Positions 683 through 62,267 of a stretch of DNA of 64,000 nucleotides are shown here, piece after piece. Numbering within the stretch: position 1 is the stretch's first letter; each line of letters opens with the position of its first letter. The notes below the pieces were generated by a model that did not search any database, was not told the DNA's origin, and saw only the letters and a program-made list of their open reading frames with translations. Where the stretch lies: assembly GCA_000002445.1 (NCBI GenBank), contig CP000070.1, positions 672,001 to 736,000 on the forward strand, written 5' to 3'. The position numbers were made by a program, and so were the translations under genes. Origin of the DNA: Trypanosoma brucei (lineage: Eukaryota).

Positions 683-3448
683 CTACCGACCCTTGACTCG
701 AGGAGTTGGCCAGTACGTCTCACGCTCGCCGTAGTGCTTCCACAACCCCACTGGCATGGAGCGGTACGATATTTTAGATGTGCTGTTGAGATGCATTTGC
801 TGCTGGGAGCGAAGAGTTTTCGTGTGGCGGGTCTCATTCATATACTTTGCAGCTGTTACCTCACCTTCAAATTCCTCAAACTTCTCCGTCACACGCCCAC
901 AGTTGCGGAGATATGCTTCACACTCTTTCTTGGTCATCCCCCTCATCGCTGCATCCTGCTTCACACGCTCAGTCCTTCTCTTTAGCACTTCCAAAGCTGC
1001 CCAGGGTGCGGTGGGTCGCGCAGCAACCGCCTGGCGCATGTACGTGTGCGCTTCCCATTGTGCACGGCGGCCCGCCACGTCGTCACATGCGGCAGAAATC
1101 AGCGATGGGCCGAACTTCTTCCCCGCCTTGTACTCAGCAACTCGGCCGTCTGACTCCTCAGCAAAAAACTTGGTCCCTGATCCTTTTTGAAGGCGCGCGC
1201 GCCAGCGTGCTTCCTTCGCCTGTTCGCGTTTGCTCCTCGGTTTTTGCGTCTCGCGTTGCGCGTACTGGTCAATAAGGTTCAGGAAGCGAGACACACCACC
1301 TTTTGATGAAGCAGGTAGCGTGCGATTTCCACCACCGTTCGTGTTCCCCGCGCCAATTACCGCCGACAGTTCAGTTGTCCTACCCGGAGCTGCACCACCA
1401 TCACCATTGCCTGGCCCATGCCCAACTCCCAACTGTGCACCATGGTTAGCCACATCCACAGGGCCTCCAACATAACTCGTGCCCCCTACTTCTAGATCGA
1501 TTACCTTTCCTTTCAGAGCTGAATCACGATCGAATTCTCGAAGTTGGGCATCAGTTTGATCCGGAGTGCCGTCAACGTAGGTTAACTCAAGTGTTGAAGT
1601 GTCAGGTCGCTCCAAACCGGTGTTTAGTCGGAAGACGCCGTAGGCGCTTGCGTGTCGTTGAAGTGGATGCGCGCGCCGCCATGCAAGGAACCTTTCTCGC
1701 CGCTTTAATTTGGAGTCCCCTCTAGATTTACCAATATGAGGTGCATCATCATCGTTTTGAAAGGTCAGAAGGGGCTCATCGGCCATTGAATCCGATACAG
1801 GAGTCGGTACCGCCTCAACGGTGCCTTCCTCATCACAGTCTAACGAAAGAACGAACTTCCGCTCCTTTGCAGATGGTTTTGTATGAAGTGGAGGCTGAGG
1901 TGGGGGATGCGGGGATGCAGTCGAGGGCACTAAACTAAGCCCTGGTGCCTTAGCGTCCTTTCCAGCCACTTCCCTCGCGCTTCTGGTAGATTCAAAATAA
2001 GCCTTCGCCATCCGCGCCTCTAAGCATCGAGCTTCACGAATTCTCTCCTCCTCCTTTTCGAGTCCTAGCCGCATCTCAGCATCCGCTTTGGCTTTAAGAA
2101 TTTTTCGAAGTCTGTCACCAGGAATAAGTCCAGAAGTTTCAGCAATAAGTCCTCGCAGCATTTCAATATTAGTCCCATCATTTGCAGAGGTAGGAATAAT
2201 AAACGGAAACACCTTGCGATACTTTCGGCGATTCTTGGTGATGACACTGTAAATCTGCCGCATGACAGAGCACACGCGCGAATGGGGCACGGAATCGCAT
2301 TTCGTTAACACGACAAAAAACACTCCATGAAGATTTTCCAACCATGTAAAGTAACGCAAATCCACCTTAGTAAGTCCTCGTTCGCAGTCAATGCAGAGCA
2401 GAAGCGTATTCACCGAACGTCTCACACCGAGATACGCATCTGTCAACTCAATTGCCTTATCACGCCACTGCTCAGACATCCCCTCCAGACCAAACCCCGG
2501 AACATCAACAAAAGTGAGTTGAAGGCCTCCACCCGGTAACTTCACGAGACCGTTACCCTTCACGTTTAGATACCGCTGCATCTGCTCTGGGGAAACGCTC
2601 TGATAGAAGGAAAGTTTCCGCGTCGTGTTGGGTGTGCTGCTTGTCTTCGCTACTTGTTGACCGAGGAGCGCATTCAACAGGCTCGACTTCCCAGCGCAAG
2701 CCTTGCCAACAAGGACAATTTCCTGATACAAGTCGTTGATCTCAAAGAAAAAGGTATGCTGATCGTAAAGAGTGGTCCGGCGTCGCCCACACCTCCGCTG
2801 CTCCACAGAGGTAGCTGTCGAATGCCCTGCGGAACCGCCTTCTTCATCGTCGCGATACATACCTGCCTGCTTAACCAAAGAATAATGTTGCCCCAACATC
2901 ACCTTATTCCCTAGGCTTATAGCCTCTTCTGTTATCCTCCCGAAACTAAGAGGCGGAGCCGGTACTAATTTGCCGTTGTATGTGTAGTCCGAAGGATCCG
3001 GGTGAGTCACTTGATAAAGTACACGTCGCCGCTTCTCAACAAGCCGTTCCCGGGCCTCCTTAAAGGCGTCAGTCACCAAATCGATAACGTCAGTGCCTAT
3101 ACCCCGAGTTGCCGGGTGATGCTCACCAAACTTCATACGTTTACCAGCGGCAGACACTTCTTGCAATTGTCGTCCGTGAGAAGGATCCAAAACAATGTCG
3201 TCGTCTGTGGTGTCTGGAACAGTGCAAAGTACATCGCTGGCGCAGCCACTATCGGCATCCATAAGAGCAAGTCGTGCGCCATTCGGATCCCTTCGTTTGG
3301 AGGATGCCAGAAGCGCGTCACCATCCATCACCTTCCTTGTGTCTGACTGCTGTTGCGTGTAGCGAGGTCGGCTGCGCAGCGGCATTCGGCCTAAGAGATC
3401 GAATGCAGCGGATGGACCGCACCGCCGTAGTGGAGTTAGCCATGGCAT
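683..3448 (-). CDS. Large GTP-binding protein with an EngB/YihA-type G domain (921 aa) and long N- and C-terminal extensions
   Basis: ATG start confirmed (cat at 3446-3448). G1 P-loop VLVGKACAGKSSLLNAL, G3 FVDVPGFG, G4 LTKCDS and a G5-like SAND follow in canonical order around residues 235-400. The C-terminal half is Gly/charge-rich low complexity. Confidence 0.75.
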   Translation of the reverse strand: MPWLTPLRRCGPSAAFDLLGRMPLRSRPRYTQQQSDTRKVMDGDALLASSKRRDPNGARLALMDADSGCASDVLCTVPDTTDDDIVLDPSHGRQLQEVSAAGKRMKFGEHHPATRGIGTDVIDLVTDAFKEARERLVEKRRRVLYQVTHPDPSDYTYNGKLVPAPPLSFGRITEEAISLGNKVMLGQHYSLVKQAGMYRDDEEGGSAGHSTATSVEQRRCGRRRTTLYDQHTFFFEINDLYQEIVLVGKACAGKSSLLNALLGQQVAKTSSTPNTTRKLSFYQSVSPEQMQRYLNVKGNGLVKLPGGGLQLTFVDVPGFGLEGMSEQWRDKAIELTDAYLGVRRSVNTLLLCIDCERGLTKVDLRYFTWLENLHGVFFVVLTKCDSVPHSRVCSVMRQIYSVITKNRRKYRKVFPFIIPTSANDGTNIEMLRGLIAETSGLIPGDRLRKILKAKADAEMRLGLEKEEERIREARCLEARMAKAYFESTRSAREVAGKDAKAPGLSLVPSTASPHPPPQPPLHTKPSAKERKFVLSLDCDEEGTVEAVPTPVSDSMADEPLLTFQNDDDAPHIGKSRGDSKLKRRERFLAWRRAHPLQRHASAYGVFRLNTGLERPDTSTLELTYVDGTPDQTDAQLREFDRDSALKGKVIDLEVGGTSYVGGPVDVANHGAQLGVGHGPGNGDGGAAPGRTTELSAVIGAGNTNGGGNRTLPASSKGGVSRFLNLIDQYAQRETQKPRSKREQAKEARWRARLQKGSGTKFFAEESDGRVAEYKAGKKFGPSLISAACDDVAGRRAQWEAHTYMRQAVAARPTAPWAALEVLKRRTERVKQDAAMRGMTKKECEAYLRNCGRVTEKFEEFEGEVTAAKYMNETRHTKTLRSQQQMHLNSTSKISYRSMPVGLWKHYGERETYWPTPRVKGR

Positions 3449-4176
3449 GCAACTTTACGTTTGTGCAAAAGTGCAATTGTAGGGAGGAGAGAGAAGGCAA
3501 AACGAAAAGAAAGTGCGCAATAACAATGAATGAAGCGACTCGACACTGCAAAATGGGGTTGTCCCTGCTATAAACAAGCAACCACACATGTCATGAGGTC
3601 AATTTAACAACCAAGGCGAAAAGAGCAGCAAAAACCTTCTTCCTCTCCTTTCTGCATTTGACGGCTTTTTCAAATGAAAATAAATGCGTTAAAAAAACAA
3701 CAAATCGGTTTACTAAAGCCCTACACATACAACATCTTTTGATTTGGCGAATCTTTATTTCCTCTTATTCCTTTCTTTGACTTTCCCTACAACAAATAAC
3801 AAACATATCGATAGTAGTAAAACAGCTTTTCATAATCTTTAAAATGTACTAGATCCTCCCTCCAACAGGTACAAACATCATTTACTTTTTTTCTGCTTCT
3901 TTCTTAATCAAGATGAACCTCCGGGTTTCTACACCCGCCGGAATCGAAAAAAAAAATGACAATAATAGTCAGTGCATGACACTGAGAGTCACAATAAGCC
4001 TGTTCGTTCGCTTTCGATTCCCCTCACGCCCTCAACACTTCCACAGTTTTGCTCTTCCGTCGCCGTCTCACACAATAGTGGGAAAAGGAGCGTGATACTG
4101 AAATGGTCAAGAATAATACAGGTAAACAAATAATATAGATACCGTGCGTTCGATCAACACACACACAAAAAAAAAA

Positions 4177-4196
4177 TATATATATATATATATATA
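4177..4196. repeat. (TA)n microsatellite following an A-run
   Basis: aaaaaaaaaatatatatatatatatatata seen directly. Typical of trypanosome intergenic DNA. Confidence 0.8.
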
Positions 4197-4955
4197 ACCT
4201 GTGGCAAAAAAAAAATAATAATAAGCGGCTGCAGCGTAGCATCCGTTGGGACCACAACCTTGCACCTACCTTTCGAATGGAATGGCAGCGGGGTGGCCAC
4301 ACTAACTTTCACCTGAGGTTGTAGAAAAAGGGAATGAAGGAGAGTGGGGACAGTTAGGGAAGCCCCCATAATCCCTCATGATAGATTGAAATTACTTGTG
4401 ACGCGACCAGGGGACTAGAGTGACACGGACGTACAAGTATAGAGATCCCCAAACAACACCTCTCAAAATCCCACTGCATATCTCCTCTGGTTGAGTGAAG
4501 AGCTTTTCAACCCCCTCTACCTCAACCATCACGTGACACCGCTTTTCACAGCGGGAGCGGCACTCTCATCCGTATAACATTGATGCCTTCCCCCCACGTA
4601 GTGCATCTGCACTTCTTTGACCGTAACTACGCGGCACGACAGCAGTGCCAAATTACATATGGTTTCAAGCACATGCCACAAAGTAAATAACAAAATCATC
4701 GACGCGTGTTTTGCCTGTATCGTCGCCGTGGTTATCGTAAACTCACGCCCTCCACCTCCGTAAATACATGATCCCATTCTCATCTCAGTTATTTATGTCT
4801 CCCCCGCCCTCAATAACATGTTGGTTCTTCAATTAAGAGACAAAAACAAAAAGTTCATCACATGAAATACACCCTCCTTAACGTAATTAACCTCATACAT
4901 AAAACGAAAGGATATATTTGGCGATGAAAAACTGAACATGGAGCGTAATACGATC

Positions 4956-6317
4956 CTATTTGTCGGCCTCCCGCGCACGGACCCTGATATAGTGAAGAAC
5001 GGTCTGCAGGTCATGCTTCAGCAGCATCAACTCCGAATTTTCGCGTTCGTACTTCTCGCGAGCCTCCGATAGTTCTCCTCTGCTGCTATCGACAGCCACA
5101 TGCTGCTTCTTCAGCGTTTCCAATGTCTCCCGAGAAGCGTGCTTTTGATCAGTCAACAAACGCTTTAACCCTTCAATGTCTCCATTCAACTCCTTCATCT
5201 CATTATTTAAGGCATACCGCTGTTGCACCAACTTACTTTCCATGTCAGCCACGCGTGCCTCACGAATGTCTCTTTCCTTCGTCGTGGTCAACAACTGATC
5301 CTTCACGTGAGTACCACGGCGTAAATGGAACAACTGATCCTTCTGCAGTTGCCGTAGACGTTCACGTTCTCCCTTCGTAGCCTCAATTTCAGCCTTCATC
5401 CCATTAAATATTTCAGCTTTTGCCTTGTCACGAGAGTCGGTGGTAGCGTTCACCTTCACCTCGTGGGCACGATATAAGTCTTGGGCAACACGATTACTTG
5501 AATCAAATGATGCTCTGGCATCCTTCAGACGAGATGGCAAGTCTTTGACATTTACACGCCACCACTCAGGAAGGTCCGTCTCGTTCCTTGCGATGTATCG
5601 TTGGCGCTCTTTCGTCCAGCAGGCTTGTAAATATGAATTCTCCACTGCTGCCTCCAGCTCCTCCACCTCCCGTTCCACATCACCGTCGTAGTAAGAGGAT
5701 ATATCACCAAGATCAATCTGAAGCAATGCGCGCTTCCTGTCATCCTCCAGTTGCTCAGCTTCTCGTCGGAGTTCGATGATATCTTCGTATATGTTCAGGT
5801 TTGGCTGCATCTCTTTCTCATATGCTTCGAATTCCCTCAGCTCCTTCTGCAGCCGAATAATAATCTGCTCCTCGGTTTCTTCCACTTCTTCTTGGGGCAG
5901 CGACTCAGCCGCACTCGAGCACCCCACATTATTGACGTCACCTTCATCCGTTCGCGGGGCCTCCTCCCCCAAAAGTTCACCATTAAGATCCCTTTCCCCT
6001 TCGATTTCATTGCACTGGGGGATGACTTCGACTAACTTCTCAGAAAAGAAATTTGCCTGGTCCTCAGATGCGGCATCACCCAACTCATCGGCGGCAGCTT
6101 CAGTCGCCGTTTCCGCTAGTCCTGACATAGCTCCTGCTGCCAATCCTTCAGCGTCTCCTCCTGCCAGTCCTCCGAGAGCAGCACTTTCCGCCTCATCCTT
6201 CGCCACACCCGTTGATGCGCCCTCACGCAGGCTCGCCAACTTACTCCCAGGTGAGACGGCGGCGTTGGAGCCCGGGCTCCGTGCATTCTTTGCGGAAGAC
6301 AGTGCAGTGGTGCTCAT
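4956..6317 (-). CDS. Coiled-coil protein, paralog 1 of a tandemly duplicated pair (453 aa from the first ATG)
   Basis: Track ORF 4956..6338 starts on GTG; the first ATG is at 6315-6317 (MSTTALSSAKN...). The central block EETEEQIIIRLQKELREFEAYE...NRVAQDLYRAHEVKVNATTDSRDKAKAE and a charged heptad-like C-terminus are shared with the gene at 8735..10348. Confidence 0.7.
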   Translation of the reverse strand: MSTTALSSAKNARSPGSNAAVSPGSKLASLREGASTGVAKDEAESAALGGLAGGDAEGLAAGAMSGLAETATEAAADELGDAASEDQANFFSEKLVEVIPQCNEIEGERDLNGELLGEEAPRTDEGDVNNVGCSSAAESLPQEEVEETEEQIIIRLQKELREFEAYEKEMQPNLNIYEDIIELRREAEQLEDDRKRALLQIDLGDISSYYDGDVEREVEELEAAVENSYLQACWTKERQRYIARNETDLPEWWRVNVKDLPSRLKDARASFDSSNRVAQDLYRAHEVKVNATTDSRDKAKAEIFNGMKAEIEATKGERERLRQLQKDQLFHLRRGTHVKDQLLTTTKERDIREARVADMESKLVQQRYALNNEMKELNGDIEGLKRLLTDQKHASRETLETLKKQHVAVDSSRGELSEAREKYERENSELMLLKHDLQTVLHYIRVRAREADK

Positions 6318-6976
6318 TGCCTCAGACTTTCTTCCCACTTCCTTTAAACACAGTCTATTGCCTTTGCGCTACACCAGTCTTAGTTAGGTATGTGCAATGA
6401 TATCGTAGCCCCCAGTGCGTATCTGGTTTTGCAGTTGAGGGGTCGTTCTCGCTTAGTTGTATTGTTCGCTTGTTAATTGGTCACTTATCACTTTCTAACA
6501 TTGATAAATGGAACCCCAATGGTGAAGCAGTGTGGTACCAGTAAACAAACAACAGAAAAGAGTTGAAAGAAAAGAGGTAACGGAAATTAAAGGGGGAAAA
6601 ACAGAAACATAGAAGGAGACCCCCAAAAAGGGAAGCAGCAAATAACTGCAGCAAACGGACAGGCAGGTGCTAGACAGGCAAGCACCTCCCTCCTCTGGAG
6701 ACGGTTCAACATGGATCACTTACACACATTTTTCCTCTTCGACTTTATCACGCTCAATTCGTTTTGTGCTTTTTCCAGGGGTATAAAGGAAAGGAAAACA
6801 CAAGAAGTGCAGTGTCATCTGAAATTGTCAATATGAAATGAAATCAAAACAACAAAACAAAAAAGAAAGGTAAAGTAAAAGGCAAAGTAAGAAAAAAGAA
6901 AAAAGAAAGAAAAGTGAAGAGAGAGAGAGAAAACGGAACCTTTTTCTTTTTCATTCGGCACTACTCGTAATTCCAA
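4956..6976. repeat. Segmental duplication, copy 1 (gene plus about 640 bp of 5' flank)
   Basis: 6339-6976 is near-identical to 10370-11006. The N-terminal coding region and 5425-5900 are near-identical to 9204-9680. The 3' coding part and the 3' flank have diverged. Period 4031 bp. Confidence 0.9.
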
Positions 6977-8734
6977 GTTCAGCTCCGTTTCCCGCCTAAC
7001 CTCGCTCCACTTGAGCACACTAATAAGCCTTTCCCCTCCTTTTACTTTTCCTTGTTGCTGTTGCTTTTTCGTAGTACATTTGTTAACGTTGTTGCTAACC
7101 TCAATCCCTTTTTTCAAAAGTTTTTTCTGTATAATTTTATTCTTTCGCTATTTTACTTATTTCTTCTTGTTTTCATTGAGTTTTCTGTTATTATGGTTTT
7201 CAGCTCGCTTGTTTGCGCCATCCATCCTCAGTTAGTTACTATTTCTTCACCTTTTATTTTCCCTTCCAGAGACGCAAACAGAAAAAAAACCTCACCCGCA
7301 ATTGCAACTACTGGAGTTGGGATGATTCTTAGTGGTGACAACGGTGGCAGTAACAGAAACCAAGGTAAAAATTTAAAAAGTTTTAATGCACCAGGGAGAA
7401 AACTGTCGGGAATTTCCCCTTGCATTCCTCCTCACTCTTCCCCTACGCAAGCAACAAGAGGAAGAAAAGGGGCAATAATAAAAAAAAGAGAAAGCAGGAC
7501 ATGTGGATAATGATCGAATTCAAAGGAGGGGGAAAGAGAGGAAAAAAGAGGAAAAAAAGAGAGGCAGAGAAAATAGATAACGAAACAAATGGGCAAGACG
7601 GAGTTTGCGGATCCAATTGTAATTCGTTATTTTTTCCCATATTATCTCTTGCCGCAGCCTTAACACTAAACTGCGTATCTGCGTATGCGACGGCACATCT
7701 TATGTTCCCTTTCTTTTTCACACACCCCACACACACACACACGCATGCATACGCGTCTCATTCCACCATAGTTCCGCCTTCCCATACGCGTACACAACCC
7801 AGCGACAGCTCCAAATAGGCAACCTCAAACCTCTCATTACAAACTCGGATTACAAAAGAAAAAAAACAGCGAAAGCAGTCACAAGGACGGTTTCCCGCTT
7901 CCTTTAGCCTCTGTTTGCTTTCTTTCATTCATTCACTTCAAGTCTGCATTTGTCGTACTTTAGTATTGAGTTCGTTCGGTTCCTCTGCTTCGTTGTACAT
8001 GTGAAGAAAGGAACCTACACAAGAACAGGGTTGGAGCCGGTGAAGTAGAAAATTTTTGACAGCAACGGGGGCAAAAAAAAGACGAAAAGGGGGGGAAAAA
8101 GTACAACGACACGCTCCTCAACCACACGTAAGCGGCAGGAACGGGGCAATAACGAGTAAAAAGAAAAAAAGAAAATTGAAACGCCGCACCGCAACGGCCC
8201 TCACACAGAAAAACAATATTTGCCTGTAACCGGTAACCCCCTCACATCTTCACTTACCTCCTTCCATCACCTCCTCCCCTCCATCAGCCAACCACACGCA
8301 TGCCCCACGTAGAGGCGAGAAGAGAGGGACTGAAAGTCCCAACAGTAACAATAATAATGATGGAGAGAAAGGAGAGTAAACAGAAGCGTAATATAACAAA
8401 ACGACAAAAGGGCGATTGTGCACTCCATATGGGGTTCACTTAAGCAATTACGTACACAAGACTTATGTACAAATCATACACTTTTATTTACTGCTTTCAC
8501 AGACCTCATACACCTCCCCCCCCCCCTTCCTCTTCGAGTGCCTTCCTTGACAAAACAGTCTCACTACCCACAAACTTTAAATACATAAACCTTAAAATAT
8601 TAATGCGGTTAGCATAAAGACATGGCCCTTCGCCCCCCACAACACTTGCAATGAAGAAAGGTCCGCATCCATACACACACACACATATATATACGTACAT
8701 AAAGATACCCGTTGCAGGTGTGAGCGGGCGTACC

Positions 8735-10348
8735 TCAGTAGTTGGCTTCACGAGCACGGACACGGATGTAGTGAAGAACGCACTGCAGCTCGTGCTTGAG
8801 CGACATCAAGTCTGAATTCTCCTCCTCGTAATCTTGTCGCGCTTTTCGAACCTCTTCTCCACTTCTTGTGACATCCAACAAATGCTTCCGTAGCTCTTGA
8901 ACGATACTCTCGCCACTGACTTTCGCATCCTTCAGCTCGCGCCGCAACTGAATGAGTTCCATCTCAAGGTCTTTGACTGTACGTTTCAGCTCCACAGAAG
9001 CACCAAAGTGCCTATTCTCCTCACCCACAACTCGGGCCTCCAGAGCATCCTGACGCCTTTTCGACGTCACCTGCAGCTCCTTCACGTGAGTACCACGGCG
9101 TAAGTGGAAACGTTGTTCCTTGTCTATAACCAACAGACGTTCCCGCCGCTGACGCAGCTCGTTCAACTCCGCAGCGATCTCTTGCCGCAGTTCAGCTTTT
9201 GCCTTGTCACGAGAGTCGGTGGTAGCGTTCACCTTCACCTCGTGGGCACGATATAAGTCTTGGGCAACACGATTACTTGAATCAAATGACCTTTTGGCCT
9301 CCCTCAAACGAAATCCCAACTTCATGATATCCACACGCCACCACTCAGGAAGGTCCGTCTCGTTCCTTGCGATGTATCGTTGGCGCTCTTTCGTCCAGCA
9401 GGCTTGTAAATATGAATTCTCCACTGCTGCCTCCAGCTCCTCCACCTCCCGTTCCACATCACCGTCGTAGTAAGAGGATATATCACCAAGATCAATCTGA
9501 AGCAATGCGCGCTTCCTGTCATCCTCCAGTTGCTCAGCTTCTCGTCGGAGTTCGATGACCTCTTCGTACATGTTCAGGTTTGGCTGCATCTCCTCCTCAT
9601 ATGCTTCGAATTCCCTCAGCTCCTCCCGCAGCCGAATAATAATCTGCTCCTCGGTTTCTTCCTCTTCTTCTGGAGCACCCGACGATGGCTGGCGGTCTGA
9701 CCTCCTGCTGCTGTCAAAAAAGTTCTCCCCATGCGCATCAACATCACTCTCACTGAGTTCAAATTCATCGGCACCCCCCTGCCTCCGCTCACTCCTTCTT
9801 CCGCTTTTTGCTTTACTCCTCAATTCACTTGTTACCTCACTTCCCAATTCGCTCCATTCTCCATCACCATCGTCCCGCACACCATACCTCGCCTCGACGC
9901 TTCGCCCACTTTTCCCCGCACTCCTCATCTCGCTGTCGCGCACGCTTTTCCTGTCACTTTTGAGTTCACTTTGTGGTGAAAGCTCGCGAGTGCTTTTCCG
10001 GTCACTTTTGAGTTCGCTGTGTGATATTTCGCGCATACTCTTCCGATCACTTTTGAGTTCACTTTGTGGTGAAACTCCACTCATGCTTTTCCGATCACTT
10101 TTGAGTTCACTTTGTGGTGAAAGCTCGCGAGTGCTTTTCCGGTCACTTTTGAGTTCGCTGTGTGATATTTCGCGCATACTCTTCCGATCACTTTTGAGTT
10201 CACTTTGTGGTGAAAGCTCGCGAGTGCTTTTCCGGTCACTCCTTAATGCGCCCTCACGCAGGCTCACCGACTTACTCCCAGGTGAGACGGCGGCGTTGGA
10301 GCCCGGGCTCCGTGCATTCTTTGCGGAAGACAGTGCAGTGGTGCTCAT
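8735..10348 (-). CDS. Coiled-coil protein, paralog 2, with an internal 15/16-aa tandem repeat array (537 aa from the first ATG)
   Basis: Same N-terminus and central domain as paralog 1. Residues about 40-140 carry at least 6 tandem units SELKSDRKS(T/M)RE(L/I)S(PQ/H). C-terminus LKHELQCVLHYIRVRAREANY versus LKHDLQTVLHYIRVRAREADK in paralog 1. Confidence 0.7.
   Translation of the reverse strand: MSTTALSSAKNARSPGSNAAVSPGSKSVSLREGALRSDRKSTRELSPQSELKSDRKSMREISHSELKSDRKSTRELSPQSELKSDRKSMSGVSPQSELKSDRKSMREISHSELKSDRKSTRELSPQSELKSDRKSVRDSEMRSAGKSGRSVEARYGVRDDGDGEWSELGSEVTSELRSKAKSGRRSERRQGGADEFELSESDVDAHGENFFDSSRRSDRQPSSGAPEEEEETEEQIIIRLREELREFEAYEEEMQPNLNMYEEVIELRREAEQLEDDRKRALLQIDLGDISSYYDGDVEREVEELEAAVENSYLQACWTKERQRYIARNETDLPEWWRVDIMKLGFRLREAKRSFDSSNRVAQDLYRAHEVKVNATTDSRDKAKAELRQEIAAELNELRQRRERLLVIDKEQRFHLRRGTHVKELQVTSKRRQDALEARVVGEENRHFGASVELKRTVKDLEMELIQLRRELKDAKVSGESIVQELRKHLLDVTRSGEEVRKARQDYEEENSDLMSLKHELQCVLHYIRVRAREANY
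9950..10245 (-). repeat. In-frame tandem repeat of 45-48 nt units (about 6.5 copies) inside paralog 2
   Basis: Plus strand shows repeated cacttttgagttcactttgtggtgaaagctcgcgagtgcttttccggt / cacttttgagttcgctgtgtgatatttcgcgcatactcttccgat units, alternating two subtypes. Confidence 0.85.
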
Positions 10349-12063
10349 TGCCTCAGACTTTCTTCCCACTTCCTTTAAACACAGTCTATTGCCTTTGCGC
10401 TACACCAGTCTTAGTTAGGTATGTGCAATGATATCGTAGCCCCCAGTGCGTATCTGGTTTTGCAGTTGAGGGGTCGTTCTCGCTTAGTTGTATTGTTCGC
10501 TTGTTAATTGGTCACTTATCACTTTCTAACATTGATAAATGGAACCCCAATGGTGAAGCAGTGTGGTACCAGTAAACAAACAACAGAAAAGAGTTGAAAG
10601 AAAAGAGGTAACGGAAATTAAAGGGGGAAAAACAGAAACATAGAAGGAGACCCCCAAAAAGGGAAGCAGCAAATAACTGCAGCAAACGGACAGGCAGGTG
10701 CTAGACAGGCAAGCACCTCCCTCCTCTGGAGACGGTTCAACATGGATCACTTACACACATTTTTCCTCTTCGACTTTATCACGCTCAATTCGTTTTGTGC
10801 TTTTTCCAGGGGTATAAAGGAAAGGAAAACACAAGAAGTGCAGTGTCATCTGAAATTGTCAATATGAAATGAAATCAAAACAACAAAACAAAAAAGAAAG
10901 GTAAAGTAAAAGGCAAAGTAAGAAAAAAGAAAAAAGAAAGAAAAGTGAAGAGAGAGAGAGAAAACGGAACCTTTTTCTTTTTCATTCGGCACTACTCGTA
11001 ATTCCTCTTTACATTTTTTCTCCCATGTGGTTCTTTGTTTTCCTCTCTGTTGTCATTATTACCGCCGTCCACCGCGTGTATGAGTGCGTTTCTCGTTGTC
11101 ACCCTTTTTTTTTTCTCTCCTATGCCCTCTCAACTTCACCTTTACTTTATTCATTCACATAAATCATTCTTCCATTGAGTCATCGCCACTTCCCTCATTA
11201 TTAACGTGCATCAATTGCTCATTCCCATCCTCCTTGATTGAAGCGTGATAAGCAGGGAAAAGAAGAGACATGGTAGTTTTTTTATGACGGCATTAACAAC
11301 AACGGCGGTGGACAGGGGTGGAGGGATAAAACGACAAAAAAGTGTCAGTTAAAAAAAAAATCCTTATTCCTAGCATGTTTTTTTTTCTCTTTTTCTTATT
11401 TTCTCTCTCCTTTCGTTTTCTTTTTCCTCAGTCATTTTACTACCGTATGTCCGAGTATATATATGTGTGTGTGTGTGTGAAGGAGTGAAGGGGTGAAGGG
11501 ATGAGGGGGTGAAGGAGTGAAGGGGCGAAGGGAACCAAGGTTTTCATTTCATTTTTTCCCCTCCCCCTTAGAAGTTTCAAAGGAAGCAAATGAAAGAAAA
11601 GAAAGGGGGGAAATGAGGGACTGCAGAGGGAGGAAAATGCATTACTATAGTCGCGTCCTCTCATTCTCTTTTCCCACAATTTCCCCCCTCCCCTCTTCCT
11701 TAAGAACTCCTTGTACTCCTCTTATCATCATTGTTAGTGCACACGTGCGTTTGCGTGTGAATATATATATATATATATATTCATTTATTTATTTATTTAT
11801 TCTTTCATTTCTTTCACACACACACACACAAGCACAAGCACAAGCACATTTATACTCATACATACACAATTTTATTATTTACCTTACCACTTCCACAACA
11901 GAAAGCCATACGTAGTGACAGACGATCTTTTCTCCTTTTTCCCTTCTCTCGCATCTCTTCCTTAGTAAACAAAACAATATTTTCTCCTAATTCCACGCGT
12001 ATGCGCATATGTTATTGTTGTTGCTCGCATTCATCTTTTATCTTTTATCTTTTATCTTTTATT

Positions 12064-15887: not shown

Positions 15888-17105
15888 TTAATTCCTGCCC
15901 CTCCCTTCCCCTTTTTCAATACCACGATCGGTACCATTGGTTCCATAAGGGTTGTAATGCCAGCGCTCCCGACCACCTTTACCGTTTCGAGTCACCACCA
16001 CAATGTTTGGTGTCATGCCGCAACCCTGCTCAGCCAAGCAATCACCAGATGTGCTGGGATCGACGTCGAGCGATAAGTTGTCCGAAGGAAAGAACGTACT
16101 CGAGACCTGGCGCATGTGAATGTCACTTACCTGCCGTGAAAGCGAAAAAGGGATATGCGCCTGTCCACAGTCCACAACGGAATGAGCTTCGGTGCAGGAG
16201 CTGGGATCGCAGCATCTCACAACTGCGGGTTGAGTAGTAACGGAGGCATCTCCAAGTGTCACGCTGCGATTGGCCCCAAACAGCGAACCTGTTGGGCTTC
16301 CGGGACACGTCCAGCCACCCGAGACGGGAGTCGGTGCATCGCAGGCAGCCGCTGCTGCAGGTGGAGGTGGCATAGAGGTACCGGAGGCAGTCACGACAAA
16401 ACAACCGCCGGAAGGTGAGGAGGAAGGAGGTTTCTTCCATGAACGCGGGCGCTGACCCAGTGTGAGGCCCCGATCACACCTCGCCACTTCCTTGCAGATG
16501 TGGAGGTAATTGCACTCCTCCGCGTAGCGGCAGCGATCCTGCACGTGTAGGCGGCAGAGCGTAATATCACCAGCCTCCAGCACAAGGCACGATGGGGGAG
16601 TGCCGAATGCACGACTTTCCCACTGAGCCCCATCTTGTCCCTCCGCTTGGGGTGTGGAATGAAAAAGAGCGTCCAGCAACCGCGAAATGGGAGTGGTGTA
16701 ACTGAAACGGGCGAGTGGAATGTAGCCGCCTCCGTAGGTCGCATCCGGGACGTGAACCACAACGCGCGACATCCATGATCGGTTATCCAGGGCATTGACG
16801 TAATCACGGTCCCCATGCAGCGCACAGCATATGGGTAGATAGTCCACTTGACTTCGAAGCGCAGCCACAACATTCAGCGCAGCATGCACCTGATGGCACT
16901 GTGTACCCTGCCGGCAGCGCCCATCCAGGAACAGCAAGCAAAGGCTCGGGATTGTCGTGCGTTGGTGCGCCCGGGTGGGGTACACGCAACTGAGTGGGAT
17001 CCGTAATTTGCGCGTGGCGGGATCCACAACGACCATGCACTCAACACCTTTTTCAAAACACATGATATCCCTCCTGGTTTCGAGTGGCGAGGCTACGAGC
17101 TGCAT
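15888..17105 (-). CDS. CCCH zinc-finger protein, paralog A (405 aa from the first ATG; ZC3H20/ZC3H21-like)
   Basis: Track ORF starts on GTG; the first ATG is at 17103-17105 ([20 protein letters not shown]...). Two canonical C-x7-C-x5-C-x3-H fingers: [21 protein letters not shown] and [19 protein letters not shown]. The C-terminus is Pro/Ser/Ala-rich. Confidence 0.75.
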
Positions 17106-20100
17106 AATTGTACCTTCGGTTGTATCTAAGGTCACCTTCACAGTCTTATTCGTTGCTCTTTGCACCTTTTTGGTGCTGGTTGGTGCTTATTGCTGTTTCG
17201 GTCTTTCTCAGGACAACCTACAGTCGGTGGTTCAACCCTATGCTATCCGACGAACTTATGTATTCTTTTTCTTTAGCTTGATTATTTTGGTTGTTCTCTG
17301 CTGTTGGGCTCTTTACTTTTGTAAATTCAAGCGCGTACGCGGCGGAAGCTGTGATTAATCACAACGAGATGGAGATAACGACAATAATAGTGATAATAAC
17401 AAGAGGACGAGAGAAGAAGTGAAATGGGAGCAAGAAGTGTGGCAGTTAAAAGGGGGGAAAGGGGGTAACCAAGACAAATAGAGCTCCAGCGGGTTAGGAA
17501 TCCAGCACCCAACACCTACACAACCCATCGCACAGCTCATTTCACGGATGATGAGGAAAGAAGAAGAAGAGGGAAACAGATAATGAAGAGAAAGTGGGGA
17601 CAAGGCGGCACAAATAACAATGATAAAAAGGCAAAGAGTAAAACATTTGAAACGCCACAAATACATAAATATATGTATAAAGAAATACACATAGTTTAAT
17701 AATAATAATATAAGGAGGTCATAGTACCTAGTCTATCACCACTTCACCAGCAACAGCCACCCACGCGAAATGTTTCAGGAAAACTGTGCACAAAGATCCG
17801 AACACACACATGCATCTGAATGAAGCTGCACACAGTAATATATATATACTTATTTTTTTTCGAAAAAAAAAGGGGAAACGCGCACCTATAAGTATTTGTG
17901 GTGGCGTTTGTGTGTGTTTACTTACCTTTTACCATCGTAACCTCCTCAGAATTCTATTACTCACCTTTCTGTTACCCCACGGGCACCGCGCAACCACTTG
18001 GTGATTATTCTCTCGTAGTCAGTAAGTCATCATTACTTCCGTTACCGCGCAAGAGCGTAAGAAAAAAAGAAAAGGACTTTCCCTCACACTTCCATTCCTT
18101 TCCTTTCCTTTTGGTTCCCTAACATTTCTTCCTTTCTTAATCTCTATTTCGCTTACGCAGATACATAATGCCTTAAATTTCCTTCAAAGCAACCCGATGC
18201 TACAACCAAGTCAAAGTAAGATGTAAAAGAACCAAAAGGCGGTAGACGGGGGACGGGAACTAAGATAGAGAAAGGAAATGAAAATGAAAATGAAAACGGG
18301 AATGGGAATGGGAAGAAAAAAACAAAAAGGGCAGCACAAACAAATAAATAAAAATAAAAAAGATAAAAATAAAGAAACAACCGGTTAAAGAGAGTCGGGT
18401 TTTACCTCCTTTCCTCATTTCTTTTTCAATCGACACGTATGCAAATGCAAGAATGTGCGAATGAAATTGGCCCAAAAGTGCTATCAGAAGCAATATGAAA
18501 ACGAAAAACGGTCCCCGAGTAGAGATAAAACGGAATTACGAACAGGTGGGGAAAAGAGTGCAGAAAAAAAAAATGAACGCGTGTTCATGTGTGTGGATTG
18601 TCCAAAAAAAAAATGACGAAAACACTTCGGCTGGGTTGAGGGAAACAAAAAAGATATATATATATATATATATATAACAATTATAACTATAGTAACTATA
18701 ATGATAGATCATTAATACCTCCGACTGCTGCTGTAATAAAAATAATAACAATAATTATATTGAAATGAAGGCAGCAACGAAGTTGGGCAGGAAGAAAGGG
18801 AAATGGAAGAATGAATTTGAGAGAGAGGAAAAGAAAAGAGAAAGGCAAGCGCAATAAAAGAGACCTGGTAAATATATACATACATTCATATATATATATA
18901 TATTAAAAAATAAAAAAATAACCGGTGCATTGTCGAAACAAATGCCCATTCACTAGTTAAAAAAAATTTAAAACAGCAACAACACGATAGGTACAAAATA
19001 AAACTTAAGAAAAAGATGAAAAAGGAAGAAGGTGTAATGGAGGAAGTCGTCGTAATGACTGAGTGAATGAATAACCGAGGTTTAGAAAAAAAAACATGAA
19101 TGAAACAAACACAACGCACCGACGACTCCCCTAACCGCACATACAAAAAAAACTACAAAGGTAAAGAAGAAGAAAAAAGCTGAAGTTGTACCTAATGAGG
19201 AAATTTTAAAAAATCAGTTAAAACATAATAACTGATAATATTTATATGGAAATCGAAATCCCCCACAAATGGTACATTAATATTACAGGGAAAGGGAATG
19301 GTTTTCAACAAAAAAAAAAAGAAAAAGAAACGCCTCTCTACCGTATTAAACAAGGAACGGGATAACATCACATATGCACACATGTAAAGGCATCTCACCA
19401 CTTTATTGTCACAGCCGACAAACTTATATCCATCTCACTCATTCACTCAGTCAGTCAGTCAGTCAGTTAGCCAATCATTCCTTTATTTACTCAACAGCTT
19501 CAAACAAACACGCGTAAAAACACGCGCCCACACATAGGAAATAAAGAAGAAAAAAAAGAAATTCAGTTCGTCCGGAAAAAAAAAACAGGAACACACACCG
19601 TGATCCTGTTACTTCCCATTTTTTCCCCGACTCCAATAGATATTTATTTTCTTTAATATCTCTTGATATCATTTATTTTTTATATTTAATTATCAAAAGG
19701 GTAAAAGAAAAACAAGGAGGAGAAACCATGCGCTACCTCACCCCTCTCCCTTTCCTTCAGTGCCTGGTGGCACTGTTTGACGTTATACAAAAAATATGTT
19801 TTTCACCTCTCTTTATTTTTTGTCCCGCCCCTTCCCAGCTCGCCATACGGGGTACAATTCGATCAATTCAGAAGCACACAGATGGGGAGAAAAAGATGAG
19901 CAGGTGCAAACAATAATAAATTAAACAAATAAAACCGCGCCCTCAAGTCCACAGATACCGAACGAGAAGATTAAAAGGCAAAGACACGCGTATGCTTGTC
20001 AGCCAATTCTTCTTCTTCACTTTTGCAGTAGTTTCGTTCTTATATTAAGATGCCTCACCTGAAGGGGAAACAGATAAACGACAGGATACAACACAATGGG

Positions 20101-21073: not shown

Positions 21074-22459
21074 TCAATCGCTGATTCCTCCCGTTGGAGT
21101 CACACCGTATGGATTGTGTTGCCAGGCGCGTGCAGAGACAGACGCTGAAGACACCGACTCGACCGGCTGTGGAACTGATGACGAAGTCCCATTGGGGCAA
21201 AGGTGAGTGGAGGAGCACTCATCTCCGGGACAGAAATAACAATTAGGTCCGTCACTACCGTAACCGTTCCGGCTGCCGTACGCGTAACCGTTGCAACCGG
21301 AATAATTGTTGTTGTCGGCGTAATGGCAGTCGCTGCACGACCCAACGAATGCGCATGGTGCGCACCCAGACTCAGGTGAGCTCCAGCGATCCCAGCAGCC
21401 TCCGGCCCCATACATTGCTGCATCCTCCCTTGCTGCTGCTGTTGTTGTTGTTGAGGTTGTTGTGGAAGAATAGCAACGCGGAACTCCGGGGTGCCCTTGG
21501 ACAAATCGGGGGGCGAGGGACGGCAATGGTGCAGCATCCATGCGACTTTCCATGTAGGCACCGGTGGGGTACCGCCCAGAAACCCAAGAGCAGTCGCTGT
21601 TAATATCCGACACGGCGTTATAACTCATTGAGCCCTCGTACGATCGAAGGGGGAATGGCGTCTGGTATTCAACCGTGGGGTATGAAAGGGGCCTTCCACG
21701 TACACGTTGTTGACGGGAGACCGAAACGAATACAGAACCCTTCTTTGCTCCTCGTGGGCCGGGTTCTCCCCCATCACGCGCCTGTGACGTGAGCGAGTAA
21801 TCACCGCTGCCATTATTGACATCGACAACAATTTCTTTGCAGATATGAAGGAAGATGCACTCCTCCGCGTATCGGCAGCGGTCCAGCGTGTGAAGGCCAC
21901 ATATTTTAAAGTCACATGCGTTTAAGACCATCCGCTTTGGATGTCCCCCACCATCAACTGCCGCAACACTGACGCCACTCTCGAGGCGAGCGTTGACTTC
22001 CCTCAATATCCTGGAAATGGGAGTGGTGTAACTGAAACGGGCGAGTGGAATGTAGCCGCCTCCGTAGGTCGCATCCGGGACGTGAACCACAACGCGCGAC
22101 ATCCATGATCGGTTATCCAGGGCATTGACGTAATCACGGTCCCCATGCAGCGCACAGCATATGGGTAGATAGTCCACTTGACTTCGAAGCGCAGCCACAA
22201 CGTCCAGCGCAGCATGCACCTGATGGCACTGTGTACCCTGCCGGCAGCGTCCATTTAAAAACAACTGGCAAAGGCTCGGGATTGTCGTGCGTTGTTGCGC
22301 CTGGGTGGGGTACACGCAACTGAGTGGGATCAGTAATTTGCGGGTGGCGGGATCCACAACCGTCAAGCACAAAACGCCCTTTTCGTCGAGAGCAAGGTGC
22401 CTTTCACCACCAGCTGGTGCGTTTACCGAAAAGTAGCGATGAGATTGTGGATGGCTCAT
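21074..22459 (-). CDS. CCCH zinc-finger protein, paralog B (461 aa from the first ATG; ZC3H20/ZC3H21-like)
   Basis: Track ORF starts on GTG; the first ATG is at 22457-22459 ([10 protein letters not shown]...). Fingers [21 protein letters not shown] and [19 protein letters not shown]. Poly-Q/Thr-rich C-terminal tail. The central roughly 115 aa are near-identical to paralog A. Confidence 0.75.
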
Positions 22460-56822: not shown

Positions 56823-57386
<564 letters not shown>

Positions 57387-57720
57387 ATAGAGTAACTCAC
57401 AGTCGGTCTGGTGAATATCCCGCGACCTGGAAATAGTTAGATGCCTATGCGGATCCCTCACTGCATCCCTTACGGGATTGTTGCGAGTGAGCCCGCAAAC
57501 TGTTTACTTCACTCCCTTTTTTTTCTTGTTTTTTCTTGATTGTGTGTGTTGTTGGCACTTTTGTCCACAAATCACATTCACCATTTTCTCAATAATTGTT
57601 GTGTGGCTCGGTTGTATTTATCGACAATGTGTGCCTCCATTTGTGTGAGGTGGTGCGGACTTGCCGTGTGCACACACAATGTGGTTGTTGTGCATGTGCA
57701 CGTGTCTGTGCTTCCTTTAG

Positions 57721-58296
<576 letters not shown>

Positions 58297-58629
58297 ATAG
58301 AGTAACTCACAGTCGGTCTGGTGAATATCCCGCGACCTGGAAATAGTTAGATGCCTATGCGGATCCCTCACTGCATCCCTTACGGGATTGTTGCGAGTGA
58401 GCCCGCAAACTGTTTACTTCACTCCCTTTTTTTCTTGTTTTTTCTTGATTGTGTGTGTTGTTGGCACTTTTGTCCACAAATCACATTCACCATTTTCTCA
58501 ATAATTGTTGTGTGGCTCGGTTGTATTTATCGACAATGTGTGCCTCCATTTGTGTGAGGTGGTGCGGACTTGCCGTGTGCACACACAATGTGGTTGTTGT
58601 GCATGTGCACGTGTCTGTGCTTCCTTTAG

Positions 58630-59205
<576 letters not shown>

Positions 59206-59539
59206 ATAGAGTAACTCACAGTCGGTCTGGTGAATATCCCGCGACCTGGAAATAGTTAGATGCCTATGCGGATCCCTCACTGCATCCCTTACGGGATTGT
59301 TGCGAGTGAGCCCGCAAACTGTTTACTTCACTCCCTTTTTTTTCTTGTTTTTTCTTGATTGTATGTGTTGTTGGCACTTTTGTCCACAAATCACATTCAC
59401 CATTTTCTCAATAATTGTTGTGTGGCTCGGTTGTATTTATCGACAATGTGTGCCTCCATTTGTGTGAGGTGGTGCGGACTTGCCGTGTGCACACACAATG
59501 TGGTTGTTGTGCATGTGCACGTATCTGTGCTTCCTTTAG

Positions 59540-60115
<576 letters not shown>

Positions 60116-60448
60116 ATAGAGTAACTCACAGTCGGTCTGGTGAATATCCCGCGACCTGGAAATAGTTAGATGCCTATGCGGATCCCTCACTGCATCCCTT
60201 ACGGGATTGTTGCGAGTGAGCCCGCAAACTGTTTACTTCACTCCCTTTTTTTTTGTTTTTTTCTTGATTGTGTGTGTTGTTGGCACTTTTGTCCACAAAT
60301 CACATTCACCATTTTCTCAATAATTGTTGTGTGGCTCGGTTGTATTTATCGACAATGTGTGCCTCCATTTGTGTGAGGTGGTGCGGACTTGCCGTGTGCA
60401 CACACAATGTGGTTGTTGTGCATGTGCACGTGTCTGTGCTTCCTTTAG

Positions 60449-61024
<576 letters not shown>

Positions 61025-61358
61025 ATAGAGTAACTCACAGTCGGTCTGGTGAATATCCCGCGACCTGGAAATAGTTAGATGCCTATGCGGATCCCTCACT
61101 GCATCCCTTACGGGATTGTTGCGAGTGAGCCCGCAAACTGTTTACTTCACTCCCTTTTTTTTCTTGTTTTTTCTTGATTGTATGTGTTGTTGGCACTTTT
61201 GTCCACAAATCACATTCACCATTTTCTCAATAATTGTTGTGTGGCTCGGTTGTATTTATCGACAATGTGTGCCTCCATTTGTGTGAGGTGGTGCGGACTT
61301 GCCGTGTGCACACACAATGTGGTTGTTGTGCATGTGCACGTATCTGTGCTTCCTTTAG

Positions 61359-61934
<576 letters not shown>

Positions 61935-62267
61935 ATAGAGTAACTCACAGTCGGTCTGGTGAATATCCCGCGACCTGGAAATAGTTAGATGCCTATGCGG
62001 ATCCCTCACTGCATCCCTTACGGGATTGTTGCGAGTGAGCCCGCAAACTGTTTACTTCACTCCCTTTTTTTCTTGTTTTTTCTTGATTGTGTGTGTTGTT
62101 GGCACTTTTGTCCACAAATCACATTCACCATTTTCTCAATAATTGTTGTGTGGCTCGGTTGTATTTATCGACAATGTGTGCCTCCATTTGTGTGAGGTGG
62201 TGCGGACTTGCCGTGTGCACACACAATGTGGTTGTTGTGCATGTGCACGTGTCTGTGCTTCCTTTAG

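What the first reader, a model, noticed from the sequence alone, without database searches (positions are those of the whole stretch)
9950..10245. Paralog-specific expansion of a Ser/Arg/Lys-rich 15/16-aa tandem repeat
Only paralog 2 contains about 6.5 in-frame copies of SELKSDRKS(T/M)RE(L/I)S(PQ/H), with two alternating unit subtypes of 45 and 48 nt. Paralog 1 has an Ala/Gly-rich linker at the same position. The repeats are dense in Ser/Thr next to basic residues (RKS, RELS), which makes plausible phospho-acceptor arrays. Short charged tandem repeats are also a hallmark of immunodominant trypanosomatid repeat antigens. Repeat number is likely polymorphic between strains.
Basis: partly seen in the sequence, partly recalled or inferred. 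Interest (0 to 1): 0.5.

Follow-up and report, generated by a model that had tools for sequence, protein, structure and literature searches.

The report
CAP51V serine-rich repeat, already described

Summary
On the minus strand, window 10252-9911 encodes seven in-frame 15/16-aa units. They lie in the 537-aa ORF 10348-8735, which is 100% identical to T. brucei TREU927 Tb927.7.2650 (CAP51V). The downstream paralog (6317-4956, CAP51, Tb927.7.2640) has an acidic Ala/Gly-rich linker at the same position.

This is not new. Portman & Gull 2014 (PMC4152294) named both proteins, noted CAP51V's "complex lysine rich repetitive element", and showed three things: stage-specific expression, localisation to the subpellicular microtubule corset, and mutual rescue of the paralogs in culture.

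- The unit order is A-B-A-C-B-A-D, built on a 141-nt higher-order repeat, not a simple alternation.
- The SELKSDRKS core carries five synonymous and no non-synonymous differences between unit types.
- Published phosphoproteomes already place phosphates on S93 and S135 inside the array.
- A long-read T. b. equiperdum assembly has six units in a different order.
- AlphaFold gives residues 1-230 low confidence and no secondary structure.

The phospho-acceptor and polymorphism ideas are supported. The antigen idea is untested. Best reading: a disordered, multi-site phospho-regulated linker that is dispensable in culture. Interest is low because the feature is already known.

The parts
8735..10348 (-). 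CAP51V coding sequence (Tb927.7.2650, 537 aa from the ATG at 10348; stop codon included)
   Evidence: The ORF appears. It is 100% identical over 537/537 residues to TREU927 XP_845888.1 / Q57XK9. The length and strand match Tb927_07_v5.1:678884-680497(-) as quoted in the PMC7136023 supplement.
9911..10252 (-). Tandem array of seven 15/16-aa units (aa 33-146), order A-B-A-C-B-A-D, built on a duplicated 141-nt block
   Evidence: TRF result; unit-by-unit parse; units 2+3 are identical to units 5+6 (93 nt).
9662..10246 (-). CAP51V-specific variable region (aa 35-229): Ser 23%, net charge +1, predicted disordered
   Evidence: No nucleotide similarity to CAP51 in this stretch; composition; AlphaFold pLDDT below 50 and no secondary structure for residues 1-230.
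9788..9829 (-). Probable decayed repeat unit SELRSKAKSGRRSE (aa 174-187). It contains the published phosphosite S178; T173 lies immediately upstream.
   Evidence: Best BLOSUM62 match to the unit consensus scores 27; 0.9% of 2000 composition-preserving shuffles reach that score. Phosphosites come from the PMC11408851 supplement.
10070..10072 (-). Codon of Ser93 (unit 4, GVS*PQ), a published phosphosite
   Evidence: PMC6907760 supplement files 4 and 6; coordinate checked.
9944..9946 (-). Codon of Ser135 (unit 7, DRKS*VR), a published phosphosite that is reduced in the TbDYRK null
   Evidence: PMC7136023 supplement file 2; coordinate checked.
10237..11005 (-). 5' flank plus the first 112 nt of the CAP51V CDS, 99.35% identical to 6206-6974 upstream of CAP51 (a probable gene-conversion tract). 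Identity ends where the array begins.
4956..6317 (-). CAP51 coding sequence (Tb927.7.2640, 453 aa), the repeat-less procyclic-stage paralog
   Evidence: Its exact sequence is TREU927 XP_845887.1 / Q57XL0; aligned with CAP51V.
5883..6215 (-). CAP51 variable region (aa 35-145): acidic, Ala/Gly/Glu-rich linker, net charge -23, with no R-x-x-S motif

Best explanation
The array is the 'lysine-rich repetitive element' of CAP51V. CAP51V is the bloodstream-form paralog of a kinetoplastid-specific protein of the subpellicular microtubule corset.

The array forms most of an intrinsically disordered N-terminal linker. That linker sits between a short conserved, phosphorylated N-terminus and the helical, coiled-coil-like body that the two paralogs share.

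The most likely role is a multi-site, phosphorylation-tunable linker. Unphosphorylated it is mildly basic (+9 over 114 aa). It carries 29 Ser and 3 Thr in repeated basophilic (R-K-S, R-K-S-T, R-x-x-S) and proline-directed (R-E-L-S-P, V-S-P) contexts. Kinases could therefore shift it towards the acidic state that the procyclic paralog CAP51 has permanently (-23). This could modulate how CAP51V sits on, or leaves, the corset during the cell cycle and during differentiation.

The array evolves by unequal recombination among units, while selection keeps the SELKSDRKS core.

Shown: the repeat itself, its frame, that the protein is made, phosphorylation at S93 and S135, strain variation, and that the array is dispensable for growth in culture. 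Inferred: disorder, the charge-switch mechanism, and any role in differentiation.
For: - Identity with Tb927.7.2650 and the published characterisation (PMC4152294).
- AlphaFold gives pLDDT below 50 and no secondary structure for residues 1-230, and five long helices for 233-536.
- Charge and composition contrast between the paralogs.
- pS93 and pS135 lie inside the array; pT173 and pS178 lie in or next to a decayed unit.
- CAP51V is listed as a candidate TbDYRK substrate (PMC10998879). The reported TbDYRK motif is R-P/R-x-S/T-P (PMC7136023). Three array sites are R-E-L-S-P, so they match at R(-3) and P(+1) only.
- All five variable nucleotide positions in the 27-nt SELKSDRKS core are synonymous, although only 17% of core sites are synonymous. 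This gives P of about 1.5e-4 under random placement. Codons 10-14 vary freely.
- Single-copy orthologues in L. major, T. theileri and Leptomonas have Ser/Arg-rich N-terminal regions with 6-7 R-x-x-S motifs; CAP51 has none.
- CAP51V shows a mobility shift of about 10 kDa while still on the cytoskeleton, before it is removed during differentiation (PMC4152294).
Against: - Repeat-less CAP51 localises to the corset and fully rescues CAP51V RNAi in bloodstream forms (PMC4152294). The array is therefore not needed for the essential function in culture.
- Only two sites in the array proper are documented, and only in the stored (truncated) parts of the supplementary tables.
- S135 is an R-K-S site, not a DYRK-type S-P site, so its dependence on TbDYRK may be indirect.
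- The array is absent from T. vivax and from the single-copy orthologues examined in more distant kinetoplastids. Unit number also varies between strains, so the exact copy number is not tightly constrained.
- No experiment has yet addressed the array itself.
Confidence: 0.45

Rival explanations
1. The array is a selectively neutral expansion. It arose by slippage or unequal crossing-over in a disordered linker that tolerates any hydrophilic sequence. Its phosphorylation is incidental, as is common in Ser-rich low-complexity regions.
For: - CAP51 without the array rescues CAP51V loss (PMC4152294).
- Unit number and order differ among three Trypanozoon assemblies.
- No orthologue outside Trypanozoon has the repeat.
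- Low-complexity regions in T. brucei are generally over-phosphorylated (PMC7682498).
- Comparable short repeats in CAP50 are dispensable for cytoskeletal binding (PMC8625193).
Against: - The SELKSDRKS core shows 5 synonymous and 0 non-synonymous differences (P about 1.5e-4), while the unit tail varies freely. This points to peptide-level constraint.
- All length variants stay in frame.
- In both T. brucei and T. vivax the N-terminal cassette stays different between paralogs, although the sequence on its 5' side is 99% identical in both species and the sequence on its 3' side is 98.5% identical in T. vivax and 88% in T. brucei. This suggests the difference is maintained.
Confidence: 0.3
2. The array is a microtubule- or tubulin-binding repeat. 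It would be analogous to the MARP-1 38-aa repeats or the tau/MAP2 repeats, adding extra microtubule contacts in bloodstream forms.
For: - CAP51V decorates the whole subpellicular corset (PMC4152294).
- Repeats of T. brucei MARP-1 are a proven microtubule-binding motif (PMC2289396 abstract).
- The array is net basic (+9), while tubulin tails are acidic (the tubulin point is general knowledge).
Against: - CAP51, with a strongly acidic repeat-less linker, localises to the same corset and substitutes functionally, so the array is not required for binding.
- No Pfam match to any tubulin-binding repeat.
- The 15/16-aa unit is half the length of the MARP and tau motifs.
- The charge is only about +1 per unit.
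Confidence: 0.1
3. The array mainly matters as an immunodominant B-cell repeat epitope, as in GM6, MARP, I2/I17 or K39.
For: Tandem repeats in intracellular cytoskeletal proteins of trypanosomatids are often strongly antigenic. This is general knowledge, and examples appear. CAP51V is expressed in the mammalian-infective stage.
Against: - None of the papers that mention Tb927.7.2650 or CAP51V reports seroreactivity.
- The array has only about 6.5 short copies and makes up 21% of the protein, which looks modest beside classical repeat antigens (a comparison from general knowledge, not checked here).
- Antigenicity would be a by-product, not a cellular mechanism.
Confidence: 0.1

Closest known systems
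CAP51V (Tb927.7.2650) and CAP51 (Tb927.7.2640), Portman & Gull 2014, PLoS One 9:e106777 (PMC4152294)
   Same: This is the same gene pair; both protein sequences are 100% identical. [quoted passage not shown]
   Different: Nothing differs in the object itself. The paper does not dissect the units, their order or the higher-order repeat. It does not cover selection on the core, strain polymorphism, phosphosites in the array, or the T. vivax pair. It interprets the 10-kDa shift as possible ubiquitination.
Other stage-specific cytoskeletal paralog pairs of T. brucei that differ by an insert (CAP5.5/CAP5.5V, FLA1/FLA2, FLA3 and its paralog, CAP15/CAP17)
   Same: One paralog is made in procyclic forms and one in bloodstream forms. 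For FLA1/FLA2 and for FLA3 and its paralog, the bloodstream protein carries an extra 30-44-residue insert (PMC4152294 discussion).
   Different: The CAP51V insert is a tandem array of Ser/Lys/Arg-rich units, not a single proline-rich or unique insert. These are different protein families.
Short disordered repeats in corset proteins CAP50 and the TbAIR9-like protein (12-aa units), and the repeats of I/6, MARP1/2, Gb4 and WCB
   Same: All are short tandem repeats in predicted unstructured parts of subpellicular cytoskeleton proteins. The CAP50 repeats are dispensable for cytoskeletal binding (PMC8625193), as inferred here for CAP51V.
   Different: Those repeats are strongly acidic (pI 4.2-4.6), whereas the CAP51V array is net basic and Ser-rich. 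There is no sequence similarity. The MARP repeats are 38 aa long and bind microtubules directly.
Multi-site phosphorylated disordered regions of microtubule-associated proteins such as tau and MAP2 (general knowledge; tau/MARK2 is mentioned in PMC7682498)
   Same: A disordered, Ser-rich region of a microtubule-associated protein carries phosphorylation sites in basic and proline-directed contexts, so phosphorylation changes its net charge.
   Different: There is no homology. In tau the repeats are themselves the microtubule-binding elements, while the CAP51V array is not required for corset association.

Membership tests
CAP51/CAP51V family (kinetoplastid-specific corset proteins) | Sequence identity with Tb927.7.2650 / Q57XK9 | tested here: met
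   537/537 residues identical; same length and strand as the TriTrypDB coordinates quoted.
CAP51/CAP51V family (kinetoplastid-specific corset proteins) | Tandem arrangement next to CAP51 on chromosome 7, with near-identical 5' flanks and unrelated 3' flanks | tested here: met
   CAP51 lies at 6317-4956 and CAP51V at 10348-8735. The 5' tract is 99.35% identical over 769 nt, and no similarity is detected in the 3' flanks. The neighbouring GTPase is identical to TREU927.
CAP51/CAP51V family (kinetoplastid-specific corset proteins) | Conserved helical, coiled-coil-like C-terminal body shared with kinetoplastid orthologues | tested here: met
   AlphaFold predicts helices at 233-285, 296-329, 335-373, 380-474 and 479-536. 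Orthologues from T. congolense, T. vivax, T. theileri, Leptomonas and L. major were recovered with E-values from 1e-18 to 1e-76.
CAP51/CAP51V family (kinetoplastid-specific corset proteins) | Localisation to the subpellicular corset and bloodstream-form-specific expression | not testable with these tools
   Published for this exact gene (PMC4152294).
Trypanosomatid immunodominant tandem-repeat antigens (GM6, MARP, I2/I17, K39 type) | Tandem amino-acid repeats in a protein of the mammalian stage | tested here: met
   Seven units; bloodstream-form expression is published.
Trypanosomatid immunodominant tandem-repeat antigens (GM6, MARP, I2/I17, K39 type) | Recognition by sera of infected hosts | not testable with these tools
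   No paper that mentions the gene reports serology.
Microtubule-binding repeat motifs (MARP-1 38-aa repeat; tau/MAP2 tubulin-binding repeat) | Sequence match to a known tubulin-binding repeat, with a unit length of about 31-38 aa | tested here: not met
   No Pfam hit above noise for the whole protein; the unit is 15/16 aa.
Microtubule-binding repeat motifs (MARP-1 38-aa repeat; tau/MAP2 tubulin-binding repeat) | The repeat is needed for, or sufficient for, microtubule association | not testable with these tools
   The published indirect evidence points the other way: repeat-less CAP51 localises to the corset and rescues.
RS (Arg/Ser dipeptide) domains of SR proteins | Runs of RS/SR dipeptides | tested here: not met
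   Only 2 RS/SR dipeptides among the 113 dipeptide positions of the array.

The most novel reading that the evidence does not exclude
The ~10-kDa upshift of cytoskeleton-bound CAP51V early in bloodstream-to-procyclic differentiation was tentatively attributed to ubiquitin by Portman & Gull. It could instead be hyperphosphorylation of the repeat array. On this reading the array is a stage-specific 'release switch': multi-site phosphorylation of the repeated RKS / RKST / RELSP sites changes the linker from basic to CAP51-like acidic and marks CAP51V for removal from the corset.

The parallel layout in T. vivax would then mean that keeping two alternative N-terminal linkers is the selected purpose of the duplication. 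There, a divergent N-terminal cassette is flanked by 98.5-99% identical sequence.
Probability: 0.2. Interest if true: 0.45.

Novelty: already known. Interest (0 to 1): 0.2.

Why it matters
The finding does not open a new question. The gene pair, its stage specificity and the repetitive insert were published in 2014.

The modest value added here is a testable explanation for an open point in that paper: why the parasite keeps two corset proteins that can replace each other in culture.

- The only region kept different between the paralogs, in both T. brucei and T. vivax, is the N-terminal linker.
- In CAP51V that linker is a phosphorylated, selection-constrained Ser/Lys/Arg array.
- That makes the array a specific target for deletion or phospho-mutant experiments in differentiation-competent lines.
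- Trypsin cuts the array into very small pieces, so standard phosphoproteomics probably under-reports its sites.

Tried and rejected
- Pfam scan of both paralogs: only sub-threshold noise, no domain.
- First word-based homology search: only three hits. It missed the exact TREU927 entry, because that entry sits in a cluster represented by a 196-aa fragment.
- Second search with aa 1-240 only: no extra strain variants.
- Exact-sequence look-ups of the window's CAP51V, and of the TREU927 CAP51 and GTPase entries: nothing on record.
- HMMER hits to the array from P0014 (3578 aa) and P0026 (713 aa): rejected as unrelated acidic or Thr-rich repeat proteins matching on periodicity alone.
- Apparent absence of CAP51V from T. 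b. gambiense DAL972: rejected as evidence. The assembly has a 100-N gap exactly there, with non-syntenic sequence beyond it.
- T. equiperdum OVI 312-aa 'protein' P0001: a chimera of scaffold pieces separated by 10-N gaps, not a real recombinant.
- Plus-strand ORF 9555-10418 (287 aa) across the array: rejected as a by-product of stop-free repeats. The published S93 entry matches the minus-strand frame.
- Pseudogene reading: rejected on published MS, tagging and RNAi data.
- The supplement of the differentiation phosphoproteome PMC4621835 is not held. The large phosphosite tables of PMC6907760 and PMC11408851 are truncated, so the list of array phosphosites is incomplete.

Full report
**What is in the sequence**

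Tandem Repeats Finder reports a single strong array at 9936-10240. It has period 48 with 6.5 copies, and also period 141 with 2.1 copies at 94% matches.

The array lies on the minus strand inside ORF 10369-8735, whose first ATG is at 10348 (537 aa). Read in that frame it consists of seven units:
- Unit 1: GALRSDRKSTRELSPQ, type A, its start replaced by the conserved N-terminus.
- Unit 2: SELKSDRKSMREISH, type B, 45 nt.
- Unit 3: SELKSDRKSTRELSPQ, type A, 48 nt.
- Unit 4: SELKSDRKSMSGVSPQ, type C, 48 nt.
- Unit 5: type B.
- Unit 6: type A.
- Unit 7: SELKSDRKSVRDSEMRSAGK, type D, degenerate.

Units 2+3 and 5+6 are the same 93 nt, so the array is a recently duplicated 141-nt block, not a simple alternation of two subtypes. 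A further decayed unit, SELRSKAKSGRRSE (aa 174-187), is probable; 0.9% of composition-preserving shuffles score as well.

A second ORF, 6317-4956 (453 aa), is the paralog. The two proteins share the first 34 residues, apart from two substitutions at positions 27-28. They are 89% identical in the N-terminal half of the core and only 43% identical in the C-terminal half.

Between residue 35 and the core, the downstream paralog has 111 residues rich in Ala, Gly and Glu, with net charge -23. The repeat-bearing paralog has 195 residues with 23% Ser and net charge +1. The array alone carries +9 over 114 aa.

**What it is**

Both proteins and the neighbouring GTPase are 100% identical to T. brucei brucei TREU927 entries XP_845887, XP_845888 and XP_845886. 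The context fits chromosome 7 near 0.67-0.73 Mb: CCCH zinc-finger genes lie upstream and a histone H2A array lies at the end of the window.

The pair is Tb927.7.2640 and Tb927.7.2650, named CAP51 and CAP51V by Portman & Gull 2014 (PMC4152294). That paper already reports the following:
- CAP51 is made in procyclic forms and CAP51V in bloodstream forms.
- Both decorate the subpellicular microtubule corset.
- RNAi of each protein in its own stage disorganises the corset and blocks cytokinesis.
- Each protein rescues loss of the other.
- During differentiation, cytoskeleton-bound CAP51V shifts up by about 10 kDa before it disappears.

The finding is therefore real but already described. The pseudogene and assembly-artefact alternatives are excluded by published protein-level data.

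**New detail obtained here**

1. *Selection on the core.* Across the four unit types, the 27-nt SELKSDRKS core has five variable positions, and all five are synonymous. Only 17% of core sites are synonymous, which gives P of about 1.5e-4 under random placement. Codons 10-14 of the unit vary freely. The peptide core is conserved by selection, not only by DNA homogenisation.

2. *Disorder.* A single-sequence AlphaFold model gives pLDDT below 50 and no secondary structure for residues 1-230, and five long helices for 233-536. This is a weak but consistent indicator of disorder.

3. *Phosphorylation.* Published bloodstream-form data contain pS93 (unit 4, GVS*PQ) in the cell-cycle phosphoproteome tables, with localisation probability 0.999 (PMC6907760 supplement). 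They also contain pS135 (unit 7, RKS*V), which is lower in the TbDYRK null (PMC7136023 supplement). pT173 and pS178 lie in or next to the decayed unit and rise after DNA damage (PMC11408851).
   - CAP51V is cited as a candidate TbDYRK substrate (PMC10998879).
   - Three array sites are R-E-L-S-P. They match the reported TbDYRK motif R-P/R-x-S/T-P only at R(-3) and P(+1).
   - Trypsin cuts the array into SDR, K, STR, SMR, ELSPQSELK (3 copies), EISHSELK (2 copies) and SMSGVSPQSELK (1 copy). Most RKS/RKST sites are therefore practically invisible to standard workflows, and the one long unique peptide is the one that was observed.

4. *Strain variation.* The T. b. equiperdum assembly CM010678.1 (2.1-Mb contig, no gaps, but with frameshift errors elsewhere in both genes) carries both paralogs. 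Its array has six units in the order A-A-B-A-C-D. It is 45 nt shorter than in TREU927, in frame, and has extra synonymous and conservative changes.
   - The T. equiperdum OVI scaffold begins A-C-B and then breaks inside the array.
   - T. b. gambiense DAL972 has a 100-N gap where CAP51V should be, so it is uninformative.

5. *Mosaic similarity between the paralogs.* The two loci are 99.35% identical for 769 nt, covering the upstream flank and the first 112 nt of the CDS. Similarity is then undetectable across the variable cassette. It is 88% in the first half of the core, weak after that, and absent in the 3' flank. The break in identity coincides with the start of the array.

6. *Other species.* An exhaustive HMMER search found orthologues only in kinetoplastids, and none has the 15/16-aa repeat.
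   - Single-copy orthologues from L. major, T. theileri and Leptomonas have Ser/Arg-rich N-termini with 6-7 R-x-x-S motifs. CAP51V has 6 and CAP51 has 0. CAP51V may therefore keep, and have amplified, an ancestral basophilic phospho-region, while CAP51's acidic linker may be derived. This is an inference from low-complexity sequence.
   - T. vivax has a syntenic tandem pair built the same way.

**How it most likely works**

The array is best read as a disordered, multi-site phospho-regulated linker specific to the bloodstream-stage protein. Phosphorylation could move its charge from basic towards the constitutively acidic state of CAP51. This could tune corset association or turnover through the cell cycle and during differentiation.

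Shown: the repeat, its frame and expression, two phosphosites in the array, variation between strains, and dispensability in culture. Inferred: disorder, the charge switch, and any link to the 10-kDa shift.

The main rival is a neutral expansion in a tolerant linker. It is favoured by the rescue experiment and by the polymorphism. It is disfavoured by the synonymous-only variation in the core and by the way the cassette stays distinct although the sequence on its 5' side is near-identical in two species. A microtubule-binding repeat and an antigenic decoy are less likely, for the reasons given under the rival explanations.

**Comparison and verdict**

The object is a member of the CAP51/CAP51V family by identity. 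It resembles other stage-specific cytoskeletal paralog pairs in which the bloodstream form carries an insert (FLA1/FLA2, FLA3 and its paralog). It also resembles the short disordered repeats of CAP50 and the TbAIR9-like protein, but with opposite charge and no sequence similarity. It is not an RS domain and not a known tubulin-binding repeat.

Novelty: already known. Interest is low (0.2). The residual value is a concrete, testable hypothesis for why two interchangeable corset proteins are kept.

Noticed in passing
L004 (T. vivax SOPI01000070.1) 5641-10840; genes 6001-7269 and 9256-10446: T. vivax has a syntenic tandem CAP51-like pair downstream of a CCCH gene. The two copies are 99.1% identical for 360 nt upstream plus the first 102 nt of the CDS. 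A cassette then cannot be aligned (262 vs 184 nt; one version acidic and Ala/Gly/Glu-rich, the other with a basic RRVVKRRPKK cluster and two S-P sites). Identity is 98.5% through the rest of the CDS and about 390 nt of 3' flank. This is the same 'conserved flanks, divergent N-terminal cassette' layout as in T. brucei. Portman & Gull mention only single-copy L. major and T. cruzi homologues.
   Followed up: partly
window 6206-6974 and 10237-11005: A 769-nt tract (5' flank plus the first 112 nt of the CDS) is 99.35% identical between the CAP51 and CAP51V loci, while the C-terminal halves of the proteins are only 43% identical. That C-terminal divergence is as large as between species. This points to an old duplication with localised gene conversion.
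   Followed up: partly
window 56853-64000: Histone H2A tandem array: eight copies in the window with a 909/910-bp period, running off the end. The 534-nt ORF stretches differ by 0-2 nt. Phosphosites on H2A (Tb927.7.2940) appear in the same DNA-damage dataset.
   Followed up: partly
window 15888-17165 and 28738-30864 (minus strand); also ORF 21074-22564: CCCH zinc-finger ORFs lie upstream of CAP51V, consistent with the ZC3H20-22 region (Tb927.7.2660 appears next to Tb927.7.2650 in the TbDYRK substrate list). They are separated by long AT-rich, microsatellite-dense intergenic stretches (11.4-15.4 kb and 18-26 kb). The middle ORF had no Pfam hit.
   Followed up: no
L002 (T. b. gambiense DAL972 FN554970.1) 9310-9409: A 100-N assembly gap lies exactly at the 5' edge of the duplicated CAP51 flank, and the sequence beyond it does not match the window. 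CAP51V is therefore missing from this assembly through a gap or misjoin, not necessarily from the genome.
   Followed up: partly
L001 (T. equiperdum OVI CZPT02000825.1) 3217-4311: The annotated 312-aa protein TEOVI_000556400 is a chimera of CAP51 and CAP51V pieces joined across three 10-N gaps. The short-read assembly broke inside the repeat and between the paralogs.
   Followed up: yes
window 9555-10418 (+): A 287-aa antisense ORF runs across the array, with a twin at 5776-6387 opposite CAP51. It is a stop-free by-product of the repeats and the shared flank, not a gene.
   Followed up: yes
window 683-3448 (-): The GTPase ORF (MMR_HSR1 / EngB-type) is 921 aa in the window and is annotated as 921 aa in T. 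equiperdum and DAL972. TREU927 annotates 900 aa from an internal Met. The sequences are otherwise identical, so the start codon is annotated inconsistently.
   Followed up: partly
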